Shown piece after piece: positions 20,546 through 56,323 of a stretch of 64,000 bases of DNA. Under the pieces are notes generated by a model that ran no database searches, was not told where the DNA came from, and saw nothing but the letters and a program-made list of their open reading frames with translations. Every line of letters begins with the position of its first letter. Position 1 is the first letter of the stretch. This stretch comes from an uncultured Prevotellaceae bacterium (GTDB lineage: Bacteria > Bacteroidota > Bacteroidia > Bacteroidales > Bacteroidaceae): positions 43,953 through 107,952 of the forward strand of contig CAMNIN010000005.1 in NCBI GenBank assembly GCA_946540735.1, read 5' to 3'. The translations under genes and the position numbers were made by a program.

Positions 20546-21445
20546 ATGAACGAAACGAGGTATTTCGAGATCGGCGAGCTCTTCATCAAGATCACTTTCG
20601 TCGATAACAAATACAACAACATGGGTATGCTCACCTCATTCTTCCCCTTCATGGTGAGTGAGAAGCCCGACGATGAGCTTATACTCGACATCACGGTGGA
20701 CGACACGCTGAAACCCATAGAGAAGAGCCGACGCGACCGCATACGCGATTTTGAGTCTGGCAACGGCAATATCATCGTCGACCTGATAGAGGGTGGAGGC
20801 TACCAGTTTATCTTCAAGGACCCCCGCGGCGCTGAATGCGGCATGTTTCAGATCGACAAAAGCTGCAAATATGTGAAGGCTGCCCTCAACGGCACTTTTG
20901 ACATGCGCAAGTTTGGTCTCCAATCCACCATGATGCTGTGCTACGCCATCGCCGGCTCATTCAAGCACACGGTCATGATCCATGCCTCGCTCGTGCGTCA
21001 CAACGGCTATGGCTACGCTTTTCATGCCGTGAGCGGCACTGGCAAGTCAACCCAGGTGAGCAACTGGCTTCGCTATATCCCCAACTGCGATTTGATGAAC
21101 GACGACAACCCAGTAATCCGTGTGATCGACGGCAAGGCCTATATTTACGGTTCACCTTGGAGCGGCAAGACCACTTGCTACAGGAAAATCAAAGCTCCTC
21201 TCGGTGCGCTGACCCGCATCGACCGTGACGACCACAACTGGGTGGAGAAATTGTCACCCATTCAGGGTTTCACCTCTGTTCTCCCATCATGCAGTTCGCT
21301 GAAATGGGACATTCCTGTCTACCGCAACGTGTGCGACACTGTCACCAAGATCGTGGAAAACGTCGGTACCTATATCCTGCACTGCCTGCCCGACAGGGAA
21401 GCTGCTGAGGTGTGTCACGCCGGCATCGCCGTGAAGGAGGCGTAA
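20546..21445 (+). CDS. HPr-kinase C-terminal-domain-like P-loop protein (putative peptide/protein kinase)
   Basis: The 299-aa ORF contains IHASLVRHNGYGYAFHAVSGTGKSTQVSNWL...MNDDNPVI...YGSPWSGK. This follows the HprK/PEPCK-fold pattern (hHa..v...g.g.l..G.SG.GKS ... DD). Confidence 0.6.
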   Translation: MNETRYFEIGELFIKITFVDNKYNNMGMLTSFFPFMVSEKPDDELILDITVDDTLKPIEKSRRDRIRDFESGNGNIIVDLIEGGGYQFIFKDPRGAECGMFQIDKSCKYVKAALNGTFDMRKFGLQSTMMLCYAIAGSFKHTVMIHASLVRHNGYGYAFHAVSGTGKSTQVSNWLRYIPNCDLMNDDNPVIRVIDGKAYIYGSPWSGKTTCYRKIKAPLGALTRIDRDDHNWVEKLSPIQGFTSVLPSCSSLKWDIPVYRNVCDTVTKIVENVGTYILHCLPDREAAEVCHAGIAVKEA

Positions 21446-21462
21446 CTTAAGCTATCCAGACC

Positions 21463-22068
21463 ATGCTCAACCGCAACAACAGTTTTTTCAAGTGGCTCCA
21501 CACTCATGACGGTGGCCAGAAGGTGATTCGACAACGAGGTACGAAGAACATCCCGCTTGAGAACCGCCTCTTCTTCCCCGTCATCGTGGAATACATCAAA
21601 GACGGACACACCGTGACCATCAACCTCCGAGGCAACAGCATGCGTCCCTTCCTGGAATCGGAACGCGACCGCGCCATGCTGACCCGCCCAGAACATCTGC
21701 GCGTCGGCGACCCCGTCTTGGCTGAGATAGAACCGGGGCATTTCGTGCTTCACCGTATCCGCAAGATGGAAGGAGACAACGTGACACTGATGGGTGATGG
21801 CAACCTCAACTGCGAATATTGCAAGGTGGAGGATTTCCGAGCCGGAGTGATCGGTTTCTACCGCAAGGGACGCAACACCATCGACCGCACAGACGGCATG
21901 AAATGGAAAGTGTACTCCTGGTTTTGGACGCACCTGCGACCCTTCCGCCGCTACCTGCTTGCCGCATACCGTTACATCTGGCTCAACCTGTTTCCTCTGA
22001 AATATCCCAAATACGCCAACGAGATACAGTTAGACCAACCCACAGCCTATAAGATCAAGAAACAATAA
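21463..22068 (+). CDS. SipW/Sec11-type (S26B-like, Ser/His) signal-peptidase-family protein
   Basis: The 201-aa ORF has the blocks GNSMRPF (Ser box), VLHRI (His box, compare SipW VTHRI) and MGDGN (compare SipW KGDNN). It has an amphipathic, aromatic C-terminal tail. Confidence 0.65.
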   Translation: MLNRNNSFFKWLHTHDGGQKVIRQRGTKNIPLENRLFFPVIVEYIKDGHTVTINLRGNSMRPFLESERDRAMLTRPEHLRVGDPVLAEIEPGHFVLHRIRKMEGDNVTLMGDGNLNCEYCKVEDFRAGVIGFYRKGRNTIDRTDGMKWKVYSWFWTHLRPFRRYLLAAYRYIWLNLFPLKYPKYANEIQLDQPTAYKIKKQ

Positions 22069-22086
22069 AACCATCATTTCCAAATT

Positions 22087-22374
22087 ATGAAAGCAAAAAA
22101 AGGATTCAACCTGCGTGAGATCTGCGGTGAGCAGATCATCGTAGCAGAAGGTAGAGAGAACATTGATTTCACTAATATCATCAGCATGAACGAATCATCG
22201 GCTCTGTTGTGGAGAAGCGTTCAGGACAAAGAGTTCACCGTCGACGACTTGGCAGACATCCTCGTCGAAAACTACATGATCGATGAGAACACCCCACTCG
22301 ACCGCGAGCGCGCCCTGAAAGACTCACAGGCCATGCTTGATAAATGGATCGAGGCTGGCATCGTCGAAGAGTAG
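22087..22374 (+). CDS. PqqD-family protein (RRE-like peptide-binding domain)
   Basis: The 95-aa ORF shows the PqqD pattern: MNESSALLWRSV..EFTVDDLADILVENY....ALKDSQAMLDKWIEAGIVE. Confidence 0.65.
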   Translation: MKAKKGFNLREICGEQIIVAEGRENIDFTNIISMNESSALLWRSVQDKEFTVDDLADILVENYMIDENTPLDRERALKDSQAMLDKWIEAGIVEE

Positions 22375-48980: not shown

Positions 48981-49094
48981 GTCTCAAAACTATTTCTTTT
49001 ATTCTCTTTTTTCAGCTTCAGCAAGAAAAAGGCAGGAAAACCTTTGCCCTACTTCATTTTTTTCATTATCTTTGTACAAATTCTTGAGTTAGCT

Positions 49095-49952
49095 ATGGTA
49101 AATAAATCTCTTTCAAATTCCACATGGGCTGGCAGTATCTCATGCCAGCGCGTCAATTATACCACCAGAGTTGATTCTTCGAAGTTGAAGTCACCCGCCA
49201 ATAATTATGTTTACAGTCTTTTCGAAAAAGGCAAGGCCCGCATCAAATACAACAAAACCGAGATCGATGTTTGCGCAGGCGATCTTCTCATTTTTCCACC
49301 TTATATTAAACCCTGCCTCACCTGGAAAAGTGAAGAATACCAGGCTTTGTGCATGATTGTGAACGCCTCTTTCGTCTATAATTGTCCATTATCCCGGAAT
49401 GTTTTCCAGTCAGTCACTTTCTCTCTGATTCATGATACCGACCCCGTTTTACAGCTTACCCGTCAAGAGAAAGAAAAATTCAGATTGACCATGAGCATGA
49501 TTCTCTATCATCTGAAAGAAGAGCACACCTATACCATTGAGGCGTTGTATTCTCTTTACGGACTTTTTCTGGCCGATCTGATGTCAGTAATCAACAAGAA
49601 GAAATCGGAGAGTTTCAACAAGCATTATTACCAGATTTTCATTGATTTCAACAAATTGCTGCGCACTCATTTCAGATACCATCACGAAATCTCGTTCTAC
49701 GCAGACCAGTTGAAAATTTCAAGTCGCTATCTCTCCTTGGTGACCAAGCAAATCGCACATACCACGGTATCGACATATATCAACCGCCTGCTGATGCTTG
49801 AAGCCTGCTGGCTCTTGAAGAACACGGACTACAGCATTCAGAAAATCAGCGATACTCTGCACTTCTCAGACCAGGCCTCGTTCTCGAAATTCTTCAAACG
49901 ATTGAACGGCAGCAATCCGCTGTTGTATCGTCGGGAGAATGAAGTACTCTGA
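49095..49952 (+). CDS. AraC-family transcriptional regulator
   Basis: The real start MVNKSLSNS is at 49095. The C-terminal double HTH is FYADQLKISSRYLSLVTKQ...IQKISDTLHFSDQASFSKFFKR. The 539-aa track ORF is an artefactual upstream extension across two minus-strand genes. Confidence 0.8.
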   Translation: MVNKSLSNSTWAGSISCQRVNYTTRVDSSKLKSPANNYVYSLFEKGKARIKYNKTEIDVCAGDLLIFPPYIKPCLTWKSEEYQALCMIVNASFVYNCPLSRNVFQSVTFSLIHDTDPVLQLTRQEKEKFRLTMSMILYHLKEEHTYTIEALYSLYGLFLADLMSVINKKKSESFNKHYYQIFIDFNKLLRTHFRYHHEISFYADQLKISSRYLSLVTKQIAHTTVSTYINRLLMLEACWLLKNTDYSIQKISDTLHFSDQASFSKFFKRLNGSNPLLYRRENEVL

Positions 49953-49959
49953 GCCAAAG

Positions 49960-50547
49960 TCAGATCATCCCTGCAATATTCTCCAGCAGCTCCTTTGTCG
50001 ATATATTCATACCCAAAGCTCTCAAGCGTTTACAAATGTCACAGGCCTGGGCTACGGTTTTCATTCTGAAGTTGGCTGTCATGGCAGCCAAAGCCTCCAG
50101 TTCTGTAGCAAACACATGATCCTCGGTATAAGGCGTTCTGGAGTTGCGAAGTTTATAGGAGATTTCCCAATATCCCTTCAACTCATCGCCAAGGTCGACC
50201 CATTCTTTATCAATGCTTCTCACCACTCCCACTCCAGGAATACAGGCGATGGCAGAGGTATCGGTGACCCACACTCTGTCGCCGACAGAGAATCTTGCTT
50301 TTGGTTCGACGTCAGGGTCATCCTCTTTTTGGTCAAGAAGGCACTGCTTCTCATTGTTGAAAAATCCATTGAGCACGGAGCAGTTTCCTCCTTCAAGTGC
50401 TTGCAACTCTTCTCTGAGCTGAATGATTTCCTCGTCCGAAAAATCATGTCTGAGAAATCCATGCAGAAGCAACTCCTTGTCGAGCCTGGCCTCAAGGTTC
50501 ATGTCTTTGACCGAATTTTCATTCTCTAATTCAAATATCTGGTTCAT
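49960..50547 (-). CDS. Hypothetical cytoplasmic protein
   Basis: The ORF is 195 aa from MNQIFELENEN. I recognise no domain or signal peptide. Confidence 0.4.
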   Translation of the reverse strand: MNQIFELENENSVKDMNLEARLDKELLLHGFLRHDFSDEEIIQLREELQALEGGNCSVLNGFFNNEKQCLLDQKEDDPDVEPKARFSVGDRVWVTDTSAIACIPGVGVVRSIDKEWVDLGDELKGYWEISYKLRNSRTPYTEDHVFATELEALAAMTANFRMKTVAQACDICKRLRALGMNISTKELLENIAGMI

Positions 50548-50728
50548 CTTTCCTGATCGTTTTTTCTTTGCAAACTTAATGAAAAAAAACCACATACGCT
50601 TTGTTTTCCTATAAAAAAAGTGAAAGATGGCATTAAAAAGACCTTTTCACTTTTTTTCCAAATAAAATTTGCATGGTTTACCATAAATAATTACTTTTGC
50701 AGAAAGATCCGCAAATCAAACAATCATC

Positions 50729-51550
50729 ATGTCAACAATCGACCAATACCTTAAAAGCAACAACACTCAAGAGCGGGAATATTGTCTATACTGGCTGACG
50801 GCCTTTGGCATCCAGTCTGTGGTCGATCTCAAACCTTCCGACGACCTATTCCCGATTATCAGCCGACACATCGAAGGCGAAATCGACATCAAACGGACGA
50901 AGCAAGAAATCCATCGTTTCTACGACCATTCCAAACAGGGCAGCGGTGATCATCATATTCATCGTGGTGAGGAAGCCGATCTTGTCTCCTCACGAATCGT
51001 GGAGATTTTTTTATCAAAAGATTTCGACCTCTCGGTGCAAGGATTCAGCAACGTTCACCGCCAAATGTTCCATGGCATCTATCACCACTCCGGCCAATGG
51101 CGTGAGCGTCCTTTCAGCAAGAAGGAATGGGTGCTGGGCAATTCATCTGTACTCTACCCCGATGCCAGTCTGATCGAAGACTTCCTCAACCACCTGTTTG
51201 AGCAAGAGAAGAGCATCGACTACTCCCGGCTGTCTGAGAAGCACAAACTGATGAGCTACAGCATCTTTATCTCCAAGTTGTTTATGATCAATGCTTTCCA
51301 GTACGCAAACAGTCGAGCTGCTTTCGTCTACGGCATCAAATACCTGCTCACTCAGGGGTACCATCTTCGCAACACCACTTTTACCAAGGAAGCCTGGTAT
51401 TTCCGCAATGCCATCATCCGCGCATTCTACACCAACATGCATCAGGGCATCTATCCTACAACAACCTTCATGGAGATGTTTTTGGGCAATCTGCTCAACG
51501 ACGAGGACAATGAACTGAGAAACCACCGCATGGTGATCAAGGGAGAATAG
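50729..51550 (+). CDS. Fic-fold protein with a degenerate Fic motif and a VbhA-like N-terminal region
   Basis: The 273-aa ORF has Fic core helices (VHRQMFHGIYHHSGQWRE). Where the HxFx(D/E)GNGRxxR motif should sit it has NAFQYANSRAAF. The N-terminus resembles VbhA-type helices (LKPSDD...HIEGEIDIKRTKQEI). Confidence 0.55.
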   Translation: MSTIDQYLKSNNTQEREYCLYWLTAFGIQSVVDLKPSDDLFPIISRHIEGEIDIKRTKQEIHRFYDHSKQGSGDHHIHRGEEADLVSSRIVEIFLSKDFDLSVQGFSNVHRQMFHGIYHHSGQWRERPFSKKEWVLGNSSVLYPDASLIEDFLNHLFEQEKSIDYSRLSEKHKLMSYSIFISKLFMINAFQYANSRAAFVYGIKYLLTQGYHLRNTTFTKEAWYFRNAIIRAFYTNMHQGIYPTTTFMEMFLGNLLNDEDNELRNHRMVIKGE

Positions 51551-51553
51551 CCT

Positions 51554-52294
51554 TCATCTTCGCACAGTTTCCACCAATCCATATTGCGCCCAGTTGCCAA
51601 GCAACTTGGCGCAATCTTTTTTTGCTACAGCCTCCTCTACTTCATACACCTCCCGGATGGCCTTCACCATGTCCGGCAAGGTGAAACACTCATGGTCGAT
51701 ACCATCCCACACTGCCTTAGCAGCCTCATTGAAAGCAATCAGATGGTGCATGTCAACGCTCTTCCTGACCGTGTCGACGAGAACGACCCGGTTACCATGG
51801 ATGGTGTCAAACCTACAATGAGGTCTAACCCGAAAAGACTTGGCCAGGTCCACTTGCTGACTGGCTTTTCCTCTTTGGCCTCCCCCAGACTGCAAACCCA
51901 CCATGCAAGCAACAATATGCGATAAAACCGTGTGCTCCACATTCTTGTTATGATCACCCTTCAGCGTCACCTCCTGTCCCCGTATCTCCACGATACGATG
52001 CATGACGTAGTGCCCGGTATCAATCTCTGCCAGCACCACGTCACCAACCTTAACCTTATCCTTTGCACGTAGAGTAACTATGTCGGTGTTGTCTTGGATT
52101 GTGGGCAGCATGCTCCGCCCCTTAGGAACCATTGAAACCTCATACCCACGAAGCAAATAGGGTTTCATCGAAGCGAAGAAACCTTCATTGTCGATTTTAA
52201 CAACCTTGCAGCTACCGGATTCCTGACAACGCTCACAACTTGTTGTAAACAACAACAGCAACCATCCAATGATGTAAAAAAAACACCTTTTCAT
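51554..52294 (-). CDS. Fusion protein: SipW/Sec11-type (Ser/His) signal-peptidase-like domain plus C-terminal PqqD-like (RRE) domain, with an N-terminal signal/lipobox
   Basis: The 246-aa ORF starts MKRCFFYIIGWLLLLFTTSC. Peptidase blocks are GRSMLPT, VMHRIV and KGDHN. The C-terminal approx. 90 aa (FNEAAKAVWDGIDHECFTLPDMVKAIREVYEV..AVAKKDCAKLLGNWAQYGLVE) parallels the stand-alone PqqD protein at 22087-22374. Confidence 0.65.
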   Translation of the reverse strand: MKRCFFYIIGWLLLLFTTSCERCQESGSCKVVKIDNEGFFASMKPYLLRGYEVSMVPKGRSMLPTIQDNTDIVTLRAKDKVKVGDVVLAEIDTGHYVMHRIVEIRGQEVTLKGDHNKNVEHTVLSHIVACMVGLQSGGGQRGKASQQVDLAKSFRVRPHCRFDTIHGNRVVLVDTVRKSVDMHHLIAFNEAAKAVWDGIDHECFTLPDMVKAIREVYEVEEAVAKKDCAKLLGNWAQYGLVETVRR

Positions 52295-52313
52295 CCTATC
52301 AAGTTTTAGCCCT

Positions 52314-52321
52314 CAAAGATA
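52314..52321 (-). promoter_or_regulatory. -7 promoter box (TATCTTTG) for the peptidase-PqqD fusion gene
   Basis: The reverse complement of caaagata matches TAnnTTTG 20 nt upstream of the ATG at 52294. Confidence 0.4.
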
Positions 52322-52383
52322 CAAAAATAAAAGGCAAGAAGAGAAAAAAGTAATTGAATTTCTACTTTGTCGGTAAAAATGCG

Positions 52384-52391
52384 TATTTTTG
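52384..52391 (+). promoter_or_regulatory. -7 promoter box (TATTTTTG) for the ATP-grasp gene
   Basis: It matches TAnnTTTG. The first in-frame ATG downstream is at 52474. Confidence 0.4.
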
Positions 52392-52473
52392 CACAATCTT
52401 TAATGAATGTTCAACAAAAGCCACTTTGCTGGCAATAAGATGGCTAAAGACTCAAAGCCAAAGACTTATAGAT

Positions 52474-53619
52474 ATGAGAGCTATAGACAAATTTTTAAAG
52501 AAAGTCGTCCTTGGGAGCGACAGACGGGTGCGTGACTTTTGCGAGAAGAAACCCTCACGTCTGAGATTCTACGAAAACAAGTACATGCCCTTGCAACTGT
52601 CATTTTTCAGATGGCACAACTATGCTATAGGAGACCATGTGCTCGGAGCCTTAAGAAAATCTACCGAAAAATACATACGCATCAATCTCACTCCAGAACA
52701 AATGGCCGACGTGAAATACACATCTAAGCTAAGAGATGATATCATCAAGTGCCGTTTGATATACAAGACCCATCCCACAGAGTATTTTTTGTATGGATAC
52801 GAGCATCTGGACTATTGGCAGCGTAAAGAATACCTCTCTGATAGCGACCGATGGCGGATTCTCCATGAGCGTTTCGGCAAAAAAGTGCATCGCGAACACG
52901 CCGACAAATGGTTCTTCTACCATCTGGCCCAACCCTATTTTCACCGGGAGGCCTGCAAAGTAGGAGAAGAAGCCAAGAAAGAAGATTTCCTTCGATTCGT
53001 TTCCCGTCACCATGATTTTTTCGTCAAACCCCTTGATGGATGTTTTGGACGTAACGCCTATCGATTGGAAGCAGACAGCGAGGAAAAAGCAGAAGAGATC
53101 TACCAAAAGCTGGTTTCAAACGGTGTGTGGATAGTAGAAGAACTGATCACACAATCCGAAGAATTCGCTGCCTGGAATGCATCGTCGGTCAACACCGTGA
53201 GAATCGCATCCTTCCTCACCGCTGAAGGAGTTCACCACAACATCGTCCCATTTTTCCGTGCCGGTCGAGTTGGATCCGTCGTCGACAACGCTTTAAGCGG
53301 CGGAATTATCGCCGGAGTAGACGAGAAGACCGGTGTCCTATGTTCGGATGGAATGGATGAGGAGGGCCGGCATTTCAACGCTCATCCCGACTCTGGAATC
53401 GTATTTGAGGGGTGGCAAGTACCAGACTGGCAGGAGTTATGCCGTCTGACCGAGGAAATACACCGCTCACTCCCTCCATATCACAGATACATCGCTTTTG
53501 ACTTTGCCCATACCGCAAAAGGATGGGTACTGGTGGAAGGAAACTGGGGACAACTCATCTTCAACCAATCAGGATGCCATCGTGGCGTCAGAAAAGAGTT
53601 TTTAAATTACATAAAATAA
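52474..53619 (+). CDS. ATP-grasp-fold ligase with a long N-terminal extension (putative peptide ligase)
   Basis: The ORF is 381 aa from MRAIDKFLKK. ATP-grasp blocks are FFVKPLDGCFGRNAY (Lys/Gly loop), WIVEELITQSEE, NTVRIASF and FDFAHTAKGWVLVEGNWGQ (Mg/ATP E-x-N). The track start at 52354 is a TTG upstream of the promoter box. Confidence 0.7.
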   Translation: MRAIDKFLKKVVLGSDRRVRDFCEKKPSRLRFYENKYMPLQLSFFRWHNYAIGDHVLGALRKSTEKYIRINLTPEQMADVKYTSKLRDDIIKCRLIYKTHPTEYFLYGYEHLDYWQRKEYLSDSDRWRILHERFGKKVHREHADKWFFYHLAQPYFHREACKVGEEAKKEDFLRFVSRHHDFFVKPLDGCFGRNAYRLEADSEEKAEEIYQKLVSNGVWIVEELITQSEEFAAWNASSVNTVRIASFLTAEGVHHNIVPFFRAGRVGSVVDNALSGGIIAGVDEKTGVLCSDGMDEEGRHFNAHPDSGIVFEGWQVPDWQELCRLTEEIHRSLPPYHRYIAFDFAHTAKGWVLVEGNWGQLIFNQSGCHRGVRKEFLNYIK

Positions 53620-53701
53620 GAATAAAGTTATCAAAAGACCTGCAACTTCCCCTATTCTGAATTTTTTTACACAATTTCTTTGGTAGTAACAAAAAAATGA
53701 C

Positions 53702-53709
53702 TAACTTTG
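53702..53709 (+). promoter_or_regulatory. -7 promoter box (TAACTTTG) for peptide gene 1
   Basis: It matches TAnnTTTG 47 nt upstream of the ATG at 53756. Confidence 0.5.
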
Positions 53710-53755
53710 TAGCGTTTTAAATAATTATATTATTAACCCTTTAAAAAAATCAGTT

Positions 53756-53887
53756 ATGAAAGCTATTTATTCAGAGCCGATGACAAAGGTTATGTCCCTG
53801 AACGTGAAGGCCGCTATCTGCGAGAAAGAGCGTACTGTTTCTGAGCCTGACAACACAGACAAGCAAGAGGACATGCCTCTGTTCTAA
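53756..53887 (+). CDS. 43-aa candidate precursor peptide, copy 1 (MKAIYSEPMTKVMSLNVKAAICEKERTVSEPDNTDKQEDMPLF)
   Basis: I found this ORF by hand because it is below the 60-aa track cut-off. It has its own -7 box and its own terminator. A near-identical inverted paralogue lies 469 nt downstream. It sits immediately downstream of the ATP-grasp gene. Confidence 0.6.
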   Translation: MKAIYSEPMTKVMSLNVKAAICEKERTVSEPDNTDKQEDMPLF

Positions 53888-53910
53888 TCCAATCGGACAA
53901 AGACAGAACA

Positions 53911-53937
53911 GCCAGACCAAACGGTCTGGCTTTTTTT
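53911..53937 (+). terminator. Rho-independent terminator of peptide gene 1
   Basis: The 8-bp GC-rich stem (gccagacc / ggtctggc) has an AAAC loop. A T7 tract follows. Confidence 0.75.
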
Positions 53938-54306
53938 ATCTTTAGTATTTTTCAATCAAGCAAGAAATCAAATTATCAAAGTTGGATCCACTTTAAAAAT
54001 CTTTTTCATCACATTTTGATGTCCGCAAGGTTCCTCTCTCCTTCGGAGGAGCGGAGTCTCTTGTAATGCAAATGTATTCATCCGACTTTTTAAAATAGAT
54101 TAAAGTATTACTTTAGAAAATACATGTAAAGTCTTACGTGAATTACAATTATATCAACCTTTACGGAATATTTAAAAAATTCCACTCTTATGGACATATC
54201 AAAACGAAGATATAGAAATCCGCTGACCCTGAAGGAAACCATTTAAGGTCATCCCTAAGGAGCAAAGTGCTGACACGATCATCAATGATTGCAAAGAGAA
54301 TACAAC

Positions 54307-54332
54307 AAAAAAGCCAGACCGTTTGGTCTGGC
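54307..54332 (-). terminator. Rho-independent terminator of peptide gene 2
   Basis: It is the same gccagacc/ggtctggc hairpin in inverted orientation. A T6 tract follows on the minus strand. Confidence 0.75.
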
Positions 54333-54355
54333 TGTTCCATTTCTGTCCGATTGGA

Positions 54356-54487
54356 TTAGAACAGAGGCATGTCCTCTTGCTTGTCTGTGTTGTCAGGCTC
54401 AGAAACAGTACGCTCTTTCTCGCAGATAGCGGCCTTCACATTCAAGAACATAACCTTAGTCATCGGCTCTGAATAAATCTTCTTCAT
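54356..54487 (-). CDS. 43-aa candidate precursor peptide, copy 2 (MKKIYSEPMTKVMFLNVKAAICEKERTVSEPDNTDKQEDMPLF)
   Basis: I found this ORF by hand. It differs from copy 1 at 2 residues (A3K, S14F) and at 8 nt, all within the first 48 nt. The last 81 coding nt plus stop plus 12 nt of 3' UTR are identical. It has its own -7 box and terminator. Confidence 0.6.
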   Translation of the reverse strand: MKKIYSEPMTKVMFLNVKAAICEKERTVSEPDNTDKQEDMPLF

Positions 54488-54547
54488 AATGGTTAAAATT
54501 TAAATGTATTAATACAGTTAATTATAATTGTGTTATGAAACACGCAG

Positions 54548-54555
54548 CAAAGATA
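54548..54555 (-). promoter_or_regulatory. -7 promoter box (TATCTTTG) for peptide gene 2
   Basis: The reverse complement of caaagata matches TAnnTTTG about 60 nt upstream of the ATG at 54487. Confidence 0.5.
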
Positions 54556-54636
54556 TGTATTTTTCTGTACAAAGCAACTCTTTGGGTCATTCAATTAACA
54601 TCTATTAGCCAAACAAGCGCAATATTTAACATTAAT

Positions 54637-54876
54637 TTACTTTAGTTTATTCCAAATCCACAAGACGATGACTGCGCCCAGCACAGAAGTGCCAAAATTA
54701 CTAAAGGGACCACCCCATGTGATGTTGAGTAGATTAAGTACCCAACCTCCAACAACACTACCCAGGATACCTAGGAAAAAATCCATACAGCATCCTTTTC
54801 CTTCTCCGTCGGTAATTCTACTGGCGATATAACCCGCCAAAATACCTACCAAGATATAACCAAATGTGAGTTCCAT
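54637..54876 (-). CDS. GlsB/YeaQ/YmgE-family small stress-response membrane protein
   Basis: The ORF is 79 aa from MELTFGYILVGILAGYIASRI...FFLGILGSVVGGWVL...VLGAVIVLWIW. This is the typical Gly-zipper three-TM pattern. The track ORF over-extends. Confidence 0.8.
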   Translation of the reverse strand: MELTFGYILVGILAGYIASRITDGEGKGCCMDFFLGILGSVVGGWVLNLLNITWGGPFSNFGTSVLGAVIVLWIWNKLK

Positions 54877-54907
54877 ATCAAATCTATTTAGTGAGTAATT
54901 GCCAAAT

Positions 54908-55417
54908 CTATTTCGGATAGCCGGTGACCTCATTTTCAGCGGCCCTATCGAGAGAGTTCTCTTCCTCCAGCATGGTGTATGATGCCGCATGATCGTTGAG
55001 GAAGATCGAGTTTAGCGTATATTCCAATGATGTCAGCGTGGCGAGTCGTTGTTTGGGTCTAAGCTGGCACTCCCAGATAGTGATGCAATGCCATCCCAAT
55101 GCAGCAAGAGCAATAAGGTCGCGCTTGTCACGTGCGCGGTTGCGATCGATTTTCTGCTGCCAAAAGTCAGTATTGGTCTTTGGCATGCGGAAGGCGGCAC
55201 ACCCCTCATGCCCATGCCAGAAACACCCATTGACGAAGATACACGTGCGGTATTTTCTCATCACGATATCAGGATGCCCCGGGAGGCGTTTATGGAAAAG
55301 CCGATACCTGAATCCTCGTGAGAAGAGGAATCGGCGGACCAGCATCTCAGGCTTGGTGTTTTTCGACCTGATGGCCGCCATATTGTTATGACGCTGAATT
55401 TTATCGAGCGTATCCAT
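54908..55417 (-). CDS. vsr: Very-short-patch-repair (Vsr) DNA mismatch endonuclease
   Basis: The 169-aa ORF aligns block by block with E. coli Vsr: RSKNTKPE, LPGHPDIVMRKYRTCIFVNGCFWHGH, KTNTDFWQQKIDRNRARD and GWHCITIWEC. Confidence 0.9.
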   Translation of the reverse strand: MDTLDKIQRHNNMAAIRSKNTKPEMLVRRFLFSRGFRYRLFHKRLPGHPDIVMRKYRTCIFVNGCFWHGHEGCAAFRMPKTNTDFWQQKIDRNRARDKRDLIALAALGWHCITIWECQLRPKQRLATLTSLEYTLNSIFLNDHAASYTMLEEENSLDRAAENEVTGYPK

Positions 55418-55429
55418 TGTACGAGAAGA

Positions 55430-56323
55430 TCAAATGCCCAAACCTCCAGAGAAAGACACGTCAACCGCCTTGCTTTGCAGGATCCTCGACCCGGGTGGTA
55501 CACTATGCGTAAGCCAGATATTACCACCCACCACGGTATCATGCCCGATGGTTATTCTCCCCAGAATCGTGGAGTTGGCATAGATTGTCACACGGTCGCC
55601 AATGATGGGATGGCGGGGCACATTGACGGGTCTTCCACTGTCGTCGACCTGGAAATTCTTCGCCCCCAGGGTCACGCCCTGATAGATGGTCACATGATTG
55701 CCTATAATACAAGTTTCTCCGATGACGACTCCTGTACCATGGTCGATGGAGAAGAACTCCCCGATCTGAGCACCCGGATGGATATCAATACCAGTAGCTG
55801 AATGAGCCCTCTCGGTAAGGATTCTCGGCAGGACCGGCACTTTCATGACATGCAGTTGATGAGCCACTCGATAATGCAGCATCGCCTGCACCACAGGATA
55901 GCAAAAAATCACCTCGCTGTAATTGCGCACAGCAGGATCGTTGTCGTATATGGCCCTTACATCAGTGAAAAGCAAACGTTTGATTTCTGGAAGCGTATCG
56001 ATGAACTGGAGCATCATTGACTCAGCCTCTTGTTCCACTTTTTCATCACATCCTCTTTCAAACTGTAATGCGAGGGCTATTTGTTCCCGGAGTAAGATAC
56101 TCAGTCGTTCGACATTCACTCCGATATGATATTCCCGGAAAGAGGCGTCGTCTAACTTATCGTCGAAATAGGCAGGAAACACGATGTCGCGCACCAGCTC
56201 TACGATAGTGCGAAGTGCTTGCACAGAAGGCAATGTTCGTCCTGAACACGCCGCAACGATGCCTTCTTCTACTGAAGTATCAGAGAGCAATGCAATATTT
56301 TTCTTGAAGACCTTTTCTTTCAT
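55430..56323 (-). CDS. cysE: Serine O-acetyltransferase (long Bacteroidetes form)
   Basis: The 297-aa ORF has the hexapeptide-repeat core GIDIHPGAQIGEFFSIDHGTGVVIGETCIIGNHVTIYQGVTLG. Confidence 0.85.
   Translation of the reverse strand: MKEKVFKKNIALLSDTSVEEGIVAACSGRTLPSVQALRTIVELVRDIVFPAYFDDKLDDASFREYHIGVNVERLSILLREQIALALQFERGCDEKVEQEAESMMLQFIDTLPEIKRLLFTDVRAIYDNDPAVRNYSEVIFCYPVVQAMLHYRVAHQLHVMKVPVLPRILTERAHSATGIDIHPGAQIGEFFSIDHGTGVVIGETCIIGNHVTIYQGVTLGAKNFQVDDSGRPVNVPRHPIIGDRVTIYANSTILGRITIGHDTVVGGNIWLTHSVPPGSRILQSKAVDVSFSGGLGI

What the first reader, a model, noticed from the sequence alone, without database searches (positions are those of the whole stretch)
51554..52294. Rosetta-stone fusion of an ER/archaeal-type (Ser/His) signal-peptidase domain with a PqqD/RRE-like domain
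The catalytic boxes resemble B. subtilis SipW and eukaryotic Sec11 (SGSMEP, VTHRI, KGDNN). They do not resemble Lys-dyad bacterial SPase I or LexA. This protein has GRSMLPT, VMHRIV and KGDHN. The same polypeptide ends in a PqqD-like domain that is a separate gene in the 21463-22374 locus. A protease covalently tethered to a leader-recognition domain is a logical leader peptidase. I do not know of one of the S26B type. The N-terminus (LLLLFTTSC) looks like a signal anchor or lipobox. That raises the question of which side of the membrane processing occurs on.
Basis: partly seen in the sequence, partly recalled or inferred. Interest (0 to 1): 0.7.

Follow-up and report, generated by a model that had tools for sequence, protein, structure and literature searches.

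The report
Peptide-docking protease fusion in rumen Prevotella
A rumen Prevotella gene really does join a signal-peptidase-like serine/histidine protease to a peptide-docking (PqqD/RRE) domain on a lipid-anchored exported protein. It sits beside small peptide genes whose conserved heads carry the kind of docking motif such domains bind, so it is probably an undescribed type of peptide-maturation protease.

Summary
ORF 51554-52294 (-) encodes a 246-aa protein with three parts: a lipoprotein signal, an S24/S26-clan protease domain, and a PqqD/RRE domain. Ser61, His99-Arg100 and Gly113-Asp114 are invariant, and His99 occupies the position of the usual general-base Lys. The two halves match the adjacent genes 21463-22068 and 22087-22374 at 35% and 26% identity, in the same order.

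The fusion is not an artefact. It occurs on many independent contigs and in about 30 clusters at 50% identity. The AlphaFold model has pLDDT 89. Its N-domain matches LexA and signal-peptidase folds, and its C-domain matches the lasso B1 proteins TfuB1 and TbiB1.

New here:
- The neighbouring 43-aa ORFs belong to a conserved peptide family with an invariant Y-x-x-P-x-T-K head, an invariant Cys22, a variable acidic tail and a P-[LM]-F end.
- The Y-x-x-P spacing is that of the lasso leader motif YxxPxL, which B1 RREs bind.
- Alignable YxxP peptides also lie near the split form (HprK-like, S24-like, PqqD, nucleotidyltransferase, ABC exporter) in 17 Bacteroidales loci.

Best reading: an RRE-guided leader peptidase acting outside the cytoplasm.

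Caveats: no biochemistry, no exporter in the locus, and two loci keep the peptides without the fusion. Strict S26B membership is not met, because HMM scores fall below the curated cut-offs.

The parts
51554..52294 (-). Gene for the 246-aa lipoprotein that fuses an S24/S26-like protease to a PqqD/RRE domain
   Evidence: ORF. Pfam Peptidase_S24 plus PqqD. About 22 fused homologues and about 30 clusters at 50% identity. AlphaFold model with pLDDT 89.1 and pTM 0.79.
52235..52294 (-). Signal peptide with lipobox (residues 1-20, MKRCFFYIIGWLLLLFTTSC)
   Evidence: Cys20 is nearly invariant in A3, and the residue before it is G, A or S. The segment after the Cys (residues 17-26) is disordered in the model. 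No SignalP tool was available, so this call rests on rules and conservation.
51890..52198 (-). Protease domain (about residues 33-135), S24/S26 clan
   Evidence: Pfam. NCBIfam sigpep_I_arch in 22 of 22, SipW in 18 of 22 and LexA in 10 of 22 fused homologues. Foldseek hits to LexA, lambda cI and UmuD' cores and to SPase I. SEC11A is the best solved-structure sequence match.
52112..52114 (-). Codon of the putative nucleophile Ser61 (in GRSMLP)
   Evidence: Invariant in 48 sequences. Aligns with the catalytic-box Ser of SEC11A, SpsB and Bacillus SPase I. Codon position read.
51998..52000 (-). Codon of the putative general base His99 (in VMHRIV)
   Evidence: His99 and Arg100 are invariant. His99 aligns with the His of SEC11A 'VHRV' and with the Lys of SpsB and 4nv4 'YVKRI'.
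51566..51847 (-). PqqD/RRE domain (about residues 150-243), three strands then three helices
   Evidence: Pfam PqqD 3.1e-10. Secondary structure E160-165, E169-174, E179-187, H190-198, H206-216, H221-237. Foldseek TfuB1 6jx3_B, TbiB1 5v1u/5v1v and PqqD 5sxy. Domain profile vs PDB gives TfuB1 at E 6.6e-7.
53756..53887 (+). Precursor-like peptide gene 1 (43 aa, MKAIYSEPMTKVMSLNVKAAIC|EKERTVSEPDNTDKQEDMPLF)
   Evidence: ORF, with its own terminator hairpin at 53910-53931. A TAACTTTG element lies upstream, read and compared from memory with the Bacteroidetes -7 consensus. Homologues occur in every fused locus with enough flank except L084. Invariant M1, Y5, P8, T10, K11, C22, P41 and F43.
54356..54487 (-). 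Precursor-like peptide gene 2 (43 aa, same tail, two substitutions in the head)
   Evidence: ORF. It is one arm of a 183-nt inverted duplication, 93% complementary. Its terminator is at 54333-54312.
52471..53619 (+). ATP-grasp ligase (PF14397 ATPgrasp_ST), divergent from the fusion gene; a variable accessory gene
   Evidence: Pfam 1.1e-34. Present between peptides and fusion in L001-5, L007, L011, L087, L090 and L099. Absent in L008-10, L081/82, L088/89, L091, L092, L095 and L098.
50729..51550 (+). Fic-fold-like 273-aa protein, convergent with the fusion gene; the most constant neighbour of the peptides
   Evidence: Pfam Fic at 22 bits, below the cut-off of 24. Weak NmFic match. The motif region reads INAFQYANSRAAF with no His. 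Found at 57-83% identity in all related loci, including the two that lack the fusion.
49960..50547 (-). Conserved 195-aa protein of unknown function
   Evidence: No family hits. Conserved at 49-79% identity in most related loci and absent in L081/82.
20546..22374 (+). Split paralogous module: HprK-like (20546-21445), S24-like Ser/His peptidase (21463-22068), PqqD (22087-22374)
   Evidence: The same trio appears in most of loci L012-L080 (Bacteroidales and Clostridia).

Best explanation
The gene encodes a lipid-anchored, exported leader peptidase made of two modules.

Proposed mechanism:
- The C-terminal PqqD/RRE domain is a lasso-B1-type winged helix-turn-helix. It docks the conserved N-terminal head (M-K-x-x-Y-x-x-P-x-T-K-hydrophobic strand) of the small peptides encoded next door.
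- This docking presents the junction around the invariant [I/V]-Cys22 to the N-terminal S24/S26-clan protease domain.
- That domain cuts with a Ser61/His99 dyad, assisted by Asp114, as in SipW and Sec11.
- Cleavage releases the variable, acidic, Pro/Ser/Thr-rich tail that ends in P-[L/M]-F.
- Because the enzyme carries a lipoprotein signal, cleavage would take place after export, much as NisP removes the nisin leader outside the cell.

The ATP-grasp ligase, where present, would be an optional cytoplasmic tailoring enzyme.

The module derives from a widespread cytoplasmic or membrane-associated cassette: YxxP peptide, HprK-like kinase, S24-like peptidase, PqqD, nucleotidyltransferase, ABC exporter. 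In that cassette the Ser/His peptidase takes the place held by the Cys protease B2 in lasso clusters.

Shown: the domain identities, the conserved catalytic residues, the lipobox, the peptide family and its motif, and the co-location.

Inferred: binding, the cleavage site, the order of steps, and the compartment in which they occur.
For: Domains and catalytic residues:
- Pfam assigns both domains above cut-off.
- Ser61, His99-Arg100 and Gly113-Asp114 are invariant in 48 sequences.
- His99 aligns to the SEC11A His and to the general-base Lys of bacterial SPases.
- All 22 fused homologues hit the archaeal/ER signal-peptidase model.

Fold:
- The model is confident (pLDDT 89, pTM 0.79).
- Its N-domain matches LexA, UmuD' and SPase I. 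Its C-domain matches TfuB1 and TbiB1, both solved with leader peptides bound.
- The PqqD-domain profile hits TfuB1 at 6.6e-7.

Peptides:
- 18 aligned sequences from the window and seven related loci have a conserved head, a variable tail, and invariant Y5, P8, T10, K11 and C22. More are listed.
- Each gene has its own terminator.
- These are the only intergenic small ORFs in the 64-kb window with [YF]xxPx[LMIVTF] near the start.
- The Y-x-x-P spacing and the 16-17 residues from Tyr to the junction match the lasso leader motif YxxPxL at -17 to -12 (PMC10368454; PMC6784204).

Linkage:
- Searching from the fusion side, every locus with enough flank except L084 has 1-3 peptide genes. They lie directly upstream on the same strand where the ATP-grasp is absent.
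- Searching from the peptide side, 9 of 11 informative metagenome loci have the fusion immediately downstream.
- Alignable YxxP peptides lie near the split S24-like/PqqD module in 17 Bacteroidales loci.
- S24-like and PqqD are fused in several different architectures. HprK-like is also fused to S24-like.
Against: - There is no experiment of any kind behind the proposed function.
- The peptides have no recognisable signal peptide, and no exporter is encoded in the locus. How a cytoplasmic peptide would reach a periplasmic lipoprotein is therefore unexplained.
- Two loci (L090, L091) retain intact peptides, the Fic-like gene and p211 but have no fusion gene at that site.
- All fused loci come from related Prevotellaceae with a conserved chromosomal backbone (Vsr, AraC, LMWPc, DHH, PGM). 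Part of the co-location could therefore be inherited synteny.
- The residues before the junction fit the small P1/P3 rule of S24/S26 enzymes only if cleavage follows Cys22. Even then one subgroup has Asp at P3.
- The third motif position is Thr, not Leu.
Confidence: 0.55

Rival explanations
1. The fusion is an envelope protease with a PqqD-type substrate-docking domain, but it acts on something other than the 43-aa peptides, for example a secreted or periplasmic protein. The 43-aa peptides would then belong functionally with the Fic-like and 195-aa proteins, and their adjacency to the fusion would be inherited synteny.
For: - L090 and L091 keep the peptides, the Fic-like gene and p211 without the fusion.
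- The Fic-like gene is the most constant neighbour of the peptides.
- The peptides lack a signal peptide while the enzyme is exported.
- Every peptide gene has its own terminator, so it is not co-transcribed with the fusion.
- The flanking backbone is syntenic in all loci.
- A preprint links PqqD plus Peptidase_S24 neighbours to a larger, signal-peptide-bearing protein family in gut bacteria (10.1101/2025.01.13.632881).
Against: - The peptides carry the Y-x-x-P motif expected for a lasso-B1-type RRE.
- Related YxxP peptides also accompany the split S24-like/PqqD module in unrelated Bacteroidales contexts, which synteny alone cannot explain.
Confidence: 0.25
2. The S24-like domain works as in LexA, UmuD and phage repressors. 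It cleaves itself, or a partner protein, in response to a signal, and the PqqD domain acts as a peptide sensor. On this reading the 43-aa peptide is a ligand (a pheromone-like signal) rather than a substrate.
For: - The fold search ranks LexA, lambda cI and UmuD' cores first.
- The domain is minimal in size and lacks the extra domain of bacterial SPase I.
- Copies within one genome share an identical tail, while tails differ between genomes. That pattern is typical of signal and receptor pairs.
Against: - No conserved Ala-Gly or Cys-Gly self-cleavage site lies upstream of the domain. The region between the lipid anchor and the domain is variable and disordered.
- Sequence models favour signal peptidases over LexA (22 of 22 vs 10 of 22).
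- The base is His, not the Lys of the self-cleaving S24 proteins.
Confidence: 0.1
3. The apparent fusion is an assembly or frameshift artefact that joins two adjacent genes, as in the split locus.
For: The same two domains are adjacent, separate genes at 21463-22374 in this window.
Against: - The single uninterrupted ORF recurs on many independent contigs and data sources, at 38-63% identity.
- About 30 clusters at 50% identity cover both domains in one chain.
- The fused form has its own lipoprotein signal and a conserved linker that are absent from the split genes.
- The model packs the two domains with pTM 0.79.
Confidence: 0.01

Closest known systems
Lasso-peptide leader processing: B1 (PqqD-type RRE) plus B2 (transglutaminase-like Cys protease), or the fused B protein (McjB, fusilassin TfuB1/B2, TbiB1)
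   Same: - An RRE docks the leader and hands the precursor to a dedicated protease, and both fused and split forms exist (PMC10885120; PMC7470986).
- The RRE here is most similar to TfuB1 and TbiB1.
- The peptide head has Tyr and Pro in the YxxPxL register.
- The split cassette carries the HprK-like kinase, nucleotidyltransferase and ABC exporter seen in kinase-type lasso clusters (PMC7533575).
   Different: - The protease belongs to the S24/S26 Ser/His clan, not the Cys transglutaminase fold.
- The domain order is protease then RRE.
- No lasso cyclase was seen among the genes annotated around the fusion.
- The fused form is an exported lipoprotein.
- The third motif position is Thr.
ER/archaeal-type signal peptidases (S26B): B. 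subtilis SipW, yeast and human Sec11/SEC11A, archaeal SPase I
   Same: - The boxes SM-x-P, HR and GD-x-N are conserved, with His in the general-base position.
- These are the best-scoring curated models.
- The catalytic domain lies on the outer side of the membrane behind an N-terminal hydrophobic anchor.
- That SipW and Sec11 use Ser/His(/Asp) is from my knowledge of the literature (Tjalsma 2000; VanValkenburgh 1999). I did not check it here.
   Different: - Scores are well below family cut-offs (30.8 vs 51.85; 23 vs 190).
- The anchor is a cleaved lipoprotein signal rather than a transmembrane segment.
- An extra substrate-docking domain is present.
- The presumed substrates are signal-less 40-47-aa peptides, not Sec preproteins.
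S24 self-cleaving proteins (LexA, UmuD, lambda cI C-terminal domains)
   Same: They are the best structural matches, and the catalytic core has the same minimal size. Pfam Peptidase_S24 is above its cut-off.
   Different: Those proteins use Ser/Lys and cleave themselves at Ala-Gly or Cys-Gly. Here the base position holds an invariant His, and no conserved self-cleavage site is present.
NisP-type extracellular leader peptidases of lanthipeptides, and SodX (an S26-family maturation protease of Ni-SOD)
   Same: - NisP is a dedicated protease, anchored outside the cytoplasm, that removes a RiPP leader after export (from knowledge; the review PMC10885120 covers leader peptidases).
- SodX is an S26-family enzyme used as a dedicated propeptide peptidase. 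Sixteen of 22 fused homologues hit its model weakly.
   Different: NisP is a subtilisin without an RRE. SodX has no RRE and acts on a folded enzyme precursor.

Membership tests
Peptidase clan SF (S24/S26) | Sequence match to the family profile above the curated threshold | tested here: met
   Pfam Peptidase_S24 scores 27.7 bits against a cut-off of 23.3. Of 22 fused homologues, 20 match S24 and 12 match Peptidase_S26.
Peptidase clan SF (S24/S26) | The beta-barrel-like catalytic core fold of LexA and signal peptidase | tested here: met
   AlphaFold model with pLDDT 89. Foldseek hits to LexA 3k2z (E 3.7e-4), 1jhf, lambda cI 1f39, UmuD' 1ay9 and SPase I 3iiq.
S26B (ER/archaeal-type signal peptidase, SipW/Sec11) | A Ser nucleophile in an SM-x-P box, and His (not Lys) as general base in an HR box, plus a GD-x-N box | tested here: met
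   S61, M62, P64, H99, R100, G113 and D114 are invariant in 48 sequences, and N116 is nearly invariant. They align to the SM-x-P, VHRV and GDNN boxes of SEC11A.
S26B (ER/archaeal-type signal peptidase, SipW/Sec11) | Score above the curated cut-off of the family models (TIGR02228, NF046067) | tested here: not met
   30.8 bits against 51.85, and 23 bits against 190. No fused homologue was shown to reach either cut-off (best E-value 6.6e-11). Membership is therefore not claimed.
S26B (ER/archaeal-type signal peptidase, SipW/Sec11) | Cleaves Sec signal peptides after a small-x-small motif | not testable with these tools
   This needs an enzyme assay. The presumed substrates here have no signal peptide.
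PqqD / RiPP recognition element (RRE) | Profile match above threshold | tested here: met
   PF05402 scores 40.7 bits against a cut-off of 23.4 and matches 22 of 22 fused homologues.
PqqD / RiPP recognition element (RRE) | Winged helix-turn-helix fold with a three-stranded sheet followed by three helices | tested here: met
   Strands 160-165, 169-174 and 179-187, then helices 190-198, 206-216 and 221-237. Foldseek TfuB1, TbiB1 and PqqD with target TM-scores of 0.63-0.73. Domain profile vs TfuB1 at E 6.6e-7.
PqqD / RiPP recognition element (RRE) | A cognate precursor peptide with a conserved recognition sequence encoded nearby | tested here: met
   Two 43-aa genes lie 1.5-2.2 kb away. The peptide family has an invariant Y-x-x-P-x-T-K head.
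Lasso peptide biosynthetic cluster | A B2-type Cys protease and an Asn-synthetase-like lasso cyclase next to the RRE | tested here: not met
   Neither appears among the genes annotated around the fusion (Pfam; precomputed Pfam of syntenic loci) or in the split cassettes examined. This is not a lasso cluster.
Graspetides (ATP-grasp-modified RiPPs) | A precursor-specific ATP-grasp macrocyclase is always present | tested here: not met
   The ATP-grasp here belongs to PF14397 (ATPgrasp_ST). It is absent from many otherwise identical loci.
Bacterial lipoprotein | N-terminal basic residues, a hydrophobic stretch, and a lipobox with an invariant Cys preceded by a small residue | tested here: met
   Alignment A3. 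This is a rule-based judgement, because no SignalP or LipoP tool was available.

The most novel reading that the evidence does not exclude
A previously unrecognised RiPP-like peptide class is widespread in gut and rumen Bacteroidales.
- Lasso-type leader recognition (a B1-like RRE reading a YxxP head) has been rewired from the Cys protease and cyclase to a signal-peptidase-like Ser/His protease.
- An HprK-like kinase, a nucleotidyltransferase or an ATP-grasp ligase serve as tailoring enzymes.
- In rumen Prevotella the protease and RRE have fused and moved to the periplasm as a lipoprotein. To my knowledge this would be the first RRE that works outside the cytoplasm, on a precursor exported with its leader still attached.
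Probability: 0.35. Interest if true: 0.75.

Novelty: new variant of a known kind. Interest (0 to 1): 0.62.

Why it matters
RRE domains are the main class-independent handle for finding ribosomal natural products. The leader peptidases known to work with them are Cys proteases (lasso B/B2). The reviewed leader peptidases do not include any S24/S26 enzyme: a 2023 review has no mention of S24, S26 or signal peptidase.

If the model holds, three things follow:
- A Ser/His signal-peptidase-like protease guided by an RRE would add a new protease chemistry to RiPP maturation.
- It would give a search key for many orphan 'RRE-containing' regions in gut and rumen Bacteroidales and Clostridia: an S24-like gene next to PqqD plus a YxxP small ORF.
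- The lipoprotein form would show that leader recognition by an RRE can operate in the cell envelope.

The peptides themselves are multi-copy, individually terminated, and have genome-specific tails. That makes them candidates for signalling or competition molecules in the rumen.

Tried and rejected
Searches that gave little:
- A single-sequence search of the 5.8-billion protein index found only 7 fused homologues. The profile search and the exhaustive search were needed to see the family.
- A single-sequence search of solved structures gave only LexA at E 0.72.
- Most genome-scan hits that appeared to cover residues up to 242 were adjacent split genes, not fusions.
- Homology clustering of small ORFs around the split trio found no precursor, only shadow ORFs of larger genes. 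A motif-based scan did find them.
- No match passed the filters in the Firmicutes loci.
- The peptides match no curated family: none in Pfam or NCBIfam for the four fused-type peptides tried, apart from one chance-level hit. One split-type peptide has a marginal hit to the paeninodin lasso family at E 0.069.
- A protein-index search with the peptide returned only one near-identical cluster.
- Rfam found nothing in 49000-55500, so the inverted repeat is not a known RNA.

Things I could not do:
- Model coordinates are not exposed, so the Ser61-His99 distance could not be measured.

Readings considered and rejected:
- The peptides as lipoproteins. The residue before the Cys is Ile or Val, one subgroup reads K-D-I-C, and the hydrophobic stretch is too short.
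- A lasso cluster with the ATP-grasp as cyclase. The ATP-grasp is dispensable, Asp or Glu at core positions 7-9 is not conserved, and the compartments do not match.
- The literature searches found no paper that characterises an S24/S26 plus RRE pair. There is only a passing note of PqqD and Peptidase_S24 neighbours in one preprint.
Full report
**1. The observation**

The minus-strand ORF 51554..52294 starts with ATG and encodes 246 aa. Pfam places Peptidase_S24 on residues 58-125 (27.7 bits, cut-off 23.3). It places PqqD on residues 171-241 (40.7 bits, cut-off 23.4).

NCBIfam ranks the protease part in this order, all below the curated cut-offs:
- archaeal/ER-type signal peptidase TIGR02228, 2.3e-7
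- SipW, 4.9e-5
- bacterial signal peptidase I, 9e-5
- LexA, 1.4e-3

**2. Is the fusion real?**

- A word-index search found 7 fused homologues. A profile search found about 22.
- An exhaustive HMM search of 1.84 billion cluster representatives found about 30 clusters at 50% identity in which one chain covers both domains. It also returned 12,889 hits to the family overall, mostly stand-alone 140-200-aa S24-like proteins.
- The fused ORF recurs on independent contigs from ENA, JGI, Logan and NCBI.
- NCBI names one homologue only 'PqqD family peptide modification chaperone [Prevotella sp.]'.
- The genome scan places the close relatives in rumen Prevotellaceae MAGs.

An assembly or frameshift artefact is excluded.

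**3. Catalytic type**

Across 48 fused and stand-alone relatives the invariant residues are G59, S61, M62, P64, H99, R100, G113, D114 and E120. A profile of that alignment finds human SEC11A as the best solved relative (E 0.03, marginal). The alignment matches SM-x-P, VHRV and GDNN box for box. In the alignments to S. aureus SpsB and to Bacillus SPase I, the general-base Lys of 'YVKRI' falls on His99.

All 22 fused homologues hit the archaeal/ER signal-peptidase model. Nineteen hit the bacterial model, 18 SipW, 16 the Ni-SOD maturation protease and 10 LexA. In Pfam, 20 hit S24 and 12 hit S26. Lys58, just before the Ser, is not invariant.

The Ser/His(/Asp) reading is therefore well founded at the sequence level. 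Membership of S26B in the strict sense is not, because the scores are below cut-off.

**4. Fold**

The AlphaFold2 model, built on the 48-sequence alignment, has mean pLDDT 89.1 and pTM 0.79. Only residues 17-26, just after the lipobox, are disordered.

Foldseek against the PDB gives two sets of hits:
- N-domain: LexA (3k2z, E 3.7e-4), lambda repressor and UmuD' cores, with SPase I (3iiq, 4wvg) lower.
- C-domain: TfuB1 (6jx3_B), TbiB1 (5v1u, 5v1v; both solved with leader peptides) and PqqD (5sxy).

A profile of the C-domain alone hits TfuB1 at 6.6e-7, TbiB1 at 4e-4 and a lasso PqqD chaperone (9x90_B) at 6e-4.

**5. Relation to the split locus**

- Residues 28-138 are 35% identical to the product of 21463..22068 (E 9e-22).
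- Residues 152-242 are 26% identical to the product of 22087..22374 (E 1e-11).
- The gene before them (20546..21445) is weakly HprK-related (ScmC and HprK_rel_A).
- This trio occurs in most of loci L012-L080. In Bacteroidales the order is HprK-like, S24-like, PqqD. In Clostridia the order is HprK-like, PqqD, S24-like.
- The trio is followed by an uncharacterised nucleotidyltransferase (PF14907) and an ABC exporter in a Bacteroidales locus, and by an ABC exporter in Eubacterium segne.

Fusions have several different architectures:
- lipoprotein forms (Prevotellaceae)
- Sec-signal forms with an inserted helical segment
- direct fusions of the 200-aa type, without a signal or with an N-terminal membrane helix followed by basic residues
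- HprK-like plus S24-like
- a 497-aa form with an extra N-terminal region

**6. Topology**

In the fused homologues a basic N-terminus and a hydrophobic stretch end in a nearly invariant Cys. The residue before it is G, A or S (T in one). This is a lipoprotein signal, so the protease and RRE lie outside the cytoplasm. The residues after the Cys are mostly basic or polar, not the acidic cluster associated with surface export in Bacteroidetes (that association is from my own knowledge). A periplasm-facing location therefore seems more likely than a surface one. This is inference, because no predictor was available.

**7. The neighbouring peptides**

The two 43-aa ORFs lie at 53756..53887 (+) and 54356..54487 (-). 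They form the arms of a 183-nt inverted duplication that is 93% complementary. Each is followed on its own strand by a 9-bp GC-rich hairpin and a T-run.

Homologous peptide genes, one to three copies, occur in every fused locus with enough flank except L084. Eighteen aligned sequences have invariant M1, Y5, P8, T10, K11, C22, P41 and F43. The head is conserved, the tail is variable, acidic and rich in Pro, Ser and Thr, and the end is P-[L/M]-F. Copies within one genome share the tail and differ in the head, while tails differ between genomes. They match no curated family.

**8. The link between peptide and RRE**

Lasso leaders carry YxxPxL at positions -17 to -12, and B1 RREs bind it (PMC10368454; PMC6784204). 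The peptides here have Y-x-x-P-x-T. The invariant Cys lies 16-17 residues after the Tyr, which is the same register as the lasso leader/core junction.

In the whole 64-kb window these are the only intergenic small ORFs with [YF]xxPx[LMIVTF] near the start.

A motif scan of the split-trio loci then uncovered alignable peptides in 17 Bacteroidales loci. Examples are MKKMNKMYEAPKAELINLDVNKDFMAGG... and MKELYEKPYAKAMEFEFQGIVCQTN.... In the joint alignment of fused-type and split-type peptides, Tyr and Pro are the only invariant columns. A hydrophobic pair ending in C, M or L (Ala in one peptide) marks the same boundary. One split-type peptide has a marginal hit to the paeninodin lasso precursor family (E 0.069).

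The S24-like/PqqD pair, split or fused, therefore travels with YxxP-headed peptides in contexts that do not share a chromosomal backbone. Inherited synteny cannot explain this.

**9. Counter-evidence**

- A metagenome scan from the peptide side gave 20 loci. Nine of the 11 informative ones have the fusion immediately downstream. L090 and L091 have intact peptides, the Fic-like gene and the 195-aa gene with no room for the fusion.
- The Fic-fold-like 273-aa gene has a degenerate motif without His. It is the most constant neighbour of the peptides.
- The ATP-grasp (PF14397) is present in about half of the loci.
- The flanking genes (Vsr, AraC, LMWPc, DHH, PGM) are a conserved Prevotellaceae backbone.
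- The peptides have no signal peptide, and no exporter lies nearby.

**10. Mechanism proposed**

The RRE docks the YxxP head. The Ser61/His99 protease then cuts at the junction. I favour cleavage after Cys22, for two reasons:
- S24/S26 enzymes need a small P1 residue. From my own knowledge, UmuD is cut at Cys24-Gly25 and LexA at Ala84-Gly85.
- P3 is then Ala, Ser or Pro in most peptides, though it is Asp in one subgroup.

The acidic tail ending in PLF is released in the envelope. This resembles NisP acting after export and differs from the cytoplasmic lasso B2. The binding, the cleavage site and the compartment are all inferred.

**11. Comparison and novelty**

The system works like lasso B1/B2 or fused B proteins, but with a different protease clan, the reverse domain order, no cyclase and an exported form. 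It looks like SipW and Sec11 in its catalytic boxes but is not a scored member of that family.

No paper in the searchable library describes an S24/S26 protease paired with an RRE:
- A leader-peptidase review has no mention of S24, S26 or signal peptidase.
- The two RRE survey papers do not mention such a pairing.
- One preprint notes PqqD and Peptidase_S24 genes flanking a predicted antimicrobial protein family and the antiSMASH 'RRE-containing' label.

I rate this a new variant of a known kind. It is a solid genome-mining lead rather than a demonstrated system.

Noticed in passing
window 53754-53936 and 54307-54489: The two peptide genes with their terminators form a 183-nt inverted duplication, 93% complementary, separated by 370 nt. 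The tails are identical, and the only two amino-acid differences are in the head (A3K, S14F). Related loci carry 1-3 copies, in tandem or inverted, and the tails are again identical within a genome.
   Followed up: partly
window 50729-51550 (+): A Fic-fold-like 273-aa protein is convergent with the fusion gene (3-nt gap here, 14-nt overlap in L001). Its motif region reads INAFQYANSRAAF, so the catalytic His is replaced by Asn. It is the most constant neighbour of the peptides and is present even where the fusion is missing (L090, L091).
   Followed up: partly
window 52471-53619 (+): An ATP-grasp ligase of the 'sugar-transfer associated' family (PF14397) lies between the fusion and the peptides in about half of the related loci and is cleanly absent from the rest. 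It has weak similarity to RimK-like glutamate ligases and to DcsG.
   Followed up: partly
window 49960-50547 (-): A conserved 195-aa protein with no match in Pfam, NCBIfam or the PDB is kept at 49-79% identity in most related loci.
   Followed up: partly
L014 10017-10145; L022 10053-10190; L029 5786-5905; L035 12556-12690; L044 15995-16108; 12 further loci: A family of unannotated 35-48-aa peptides with an MKK...Y-E-x-P-x-A-E-hydrophobic head lies 1-7 kb from the split HprK-like/S24-like/PqqD trio in Bacteroidales MAGs. The cassette also carries a PF14907 nucleotidyltransferase and an ABC exporter. It resembles kinase-type lasso clusters that lack the cyclase and the B2 protease.
   Followed up: partly
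P0147 (434 aa), P0140 (497 aa), P0161 (299 aa): Three further fusion architectures occur: HprK-like plus S24-like in one chain, an extra 230-aa N-terminal region before S24-like plus PqqD, and a TIR-like N-terminal region before the S24-like domain. P0161 lacks the His (its box reads VLLRV).
   Followed up: no
L028, L049, L050, L056, L058, L061, L064, L065 (about 2 kb downstream of the trio, opposite strand): In Clostridia loci a conserved ~60-aa coiled-coil-like protein (…LLxEIExLKxQLNYExQQHKHWEELAMLFHDALWxEL…) accompanies the HprK-like, PqqD, S24-like and ABC cassette. No YxxP peptide was found there.
   Followed up: no
window 54637-54990 (-) and L005 77-316: A small Transgly_assoc (GlsB/YeaQ/YmgE-type) membrane protein lies next to the peptide genes in the window and in L005. 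The 117-aa ORF in the window overlaps the Vsr gene, so the true start is probably the internal Met that gives about 79 aa, as in L005.
   Followed up: no
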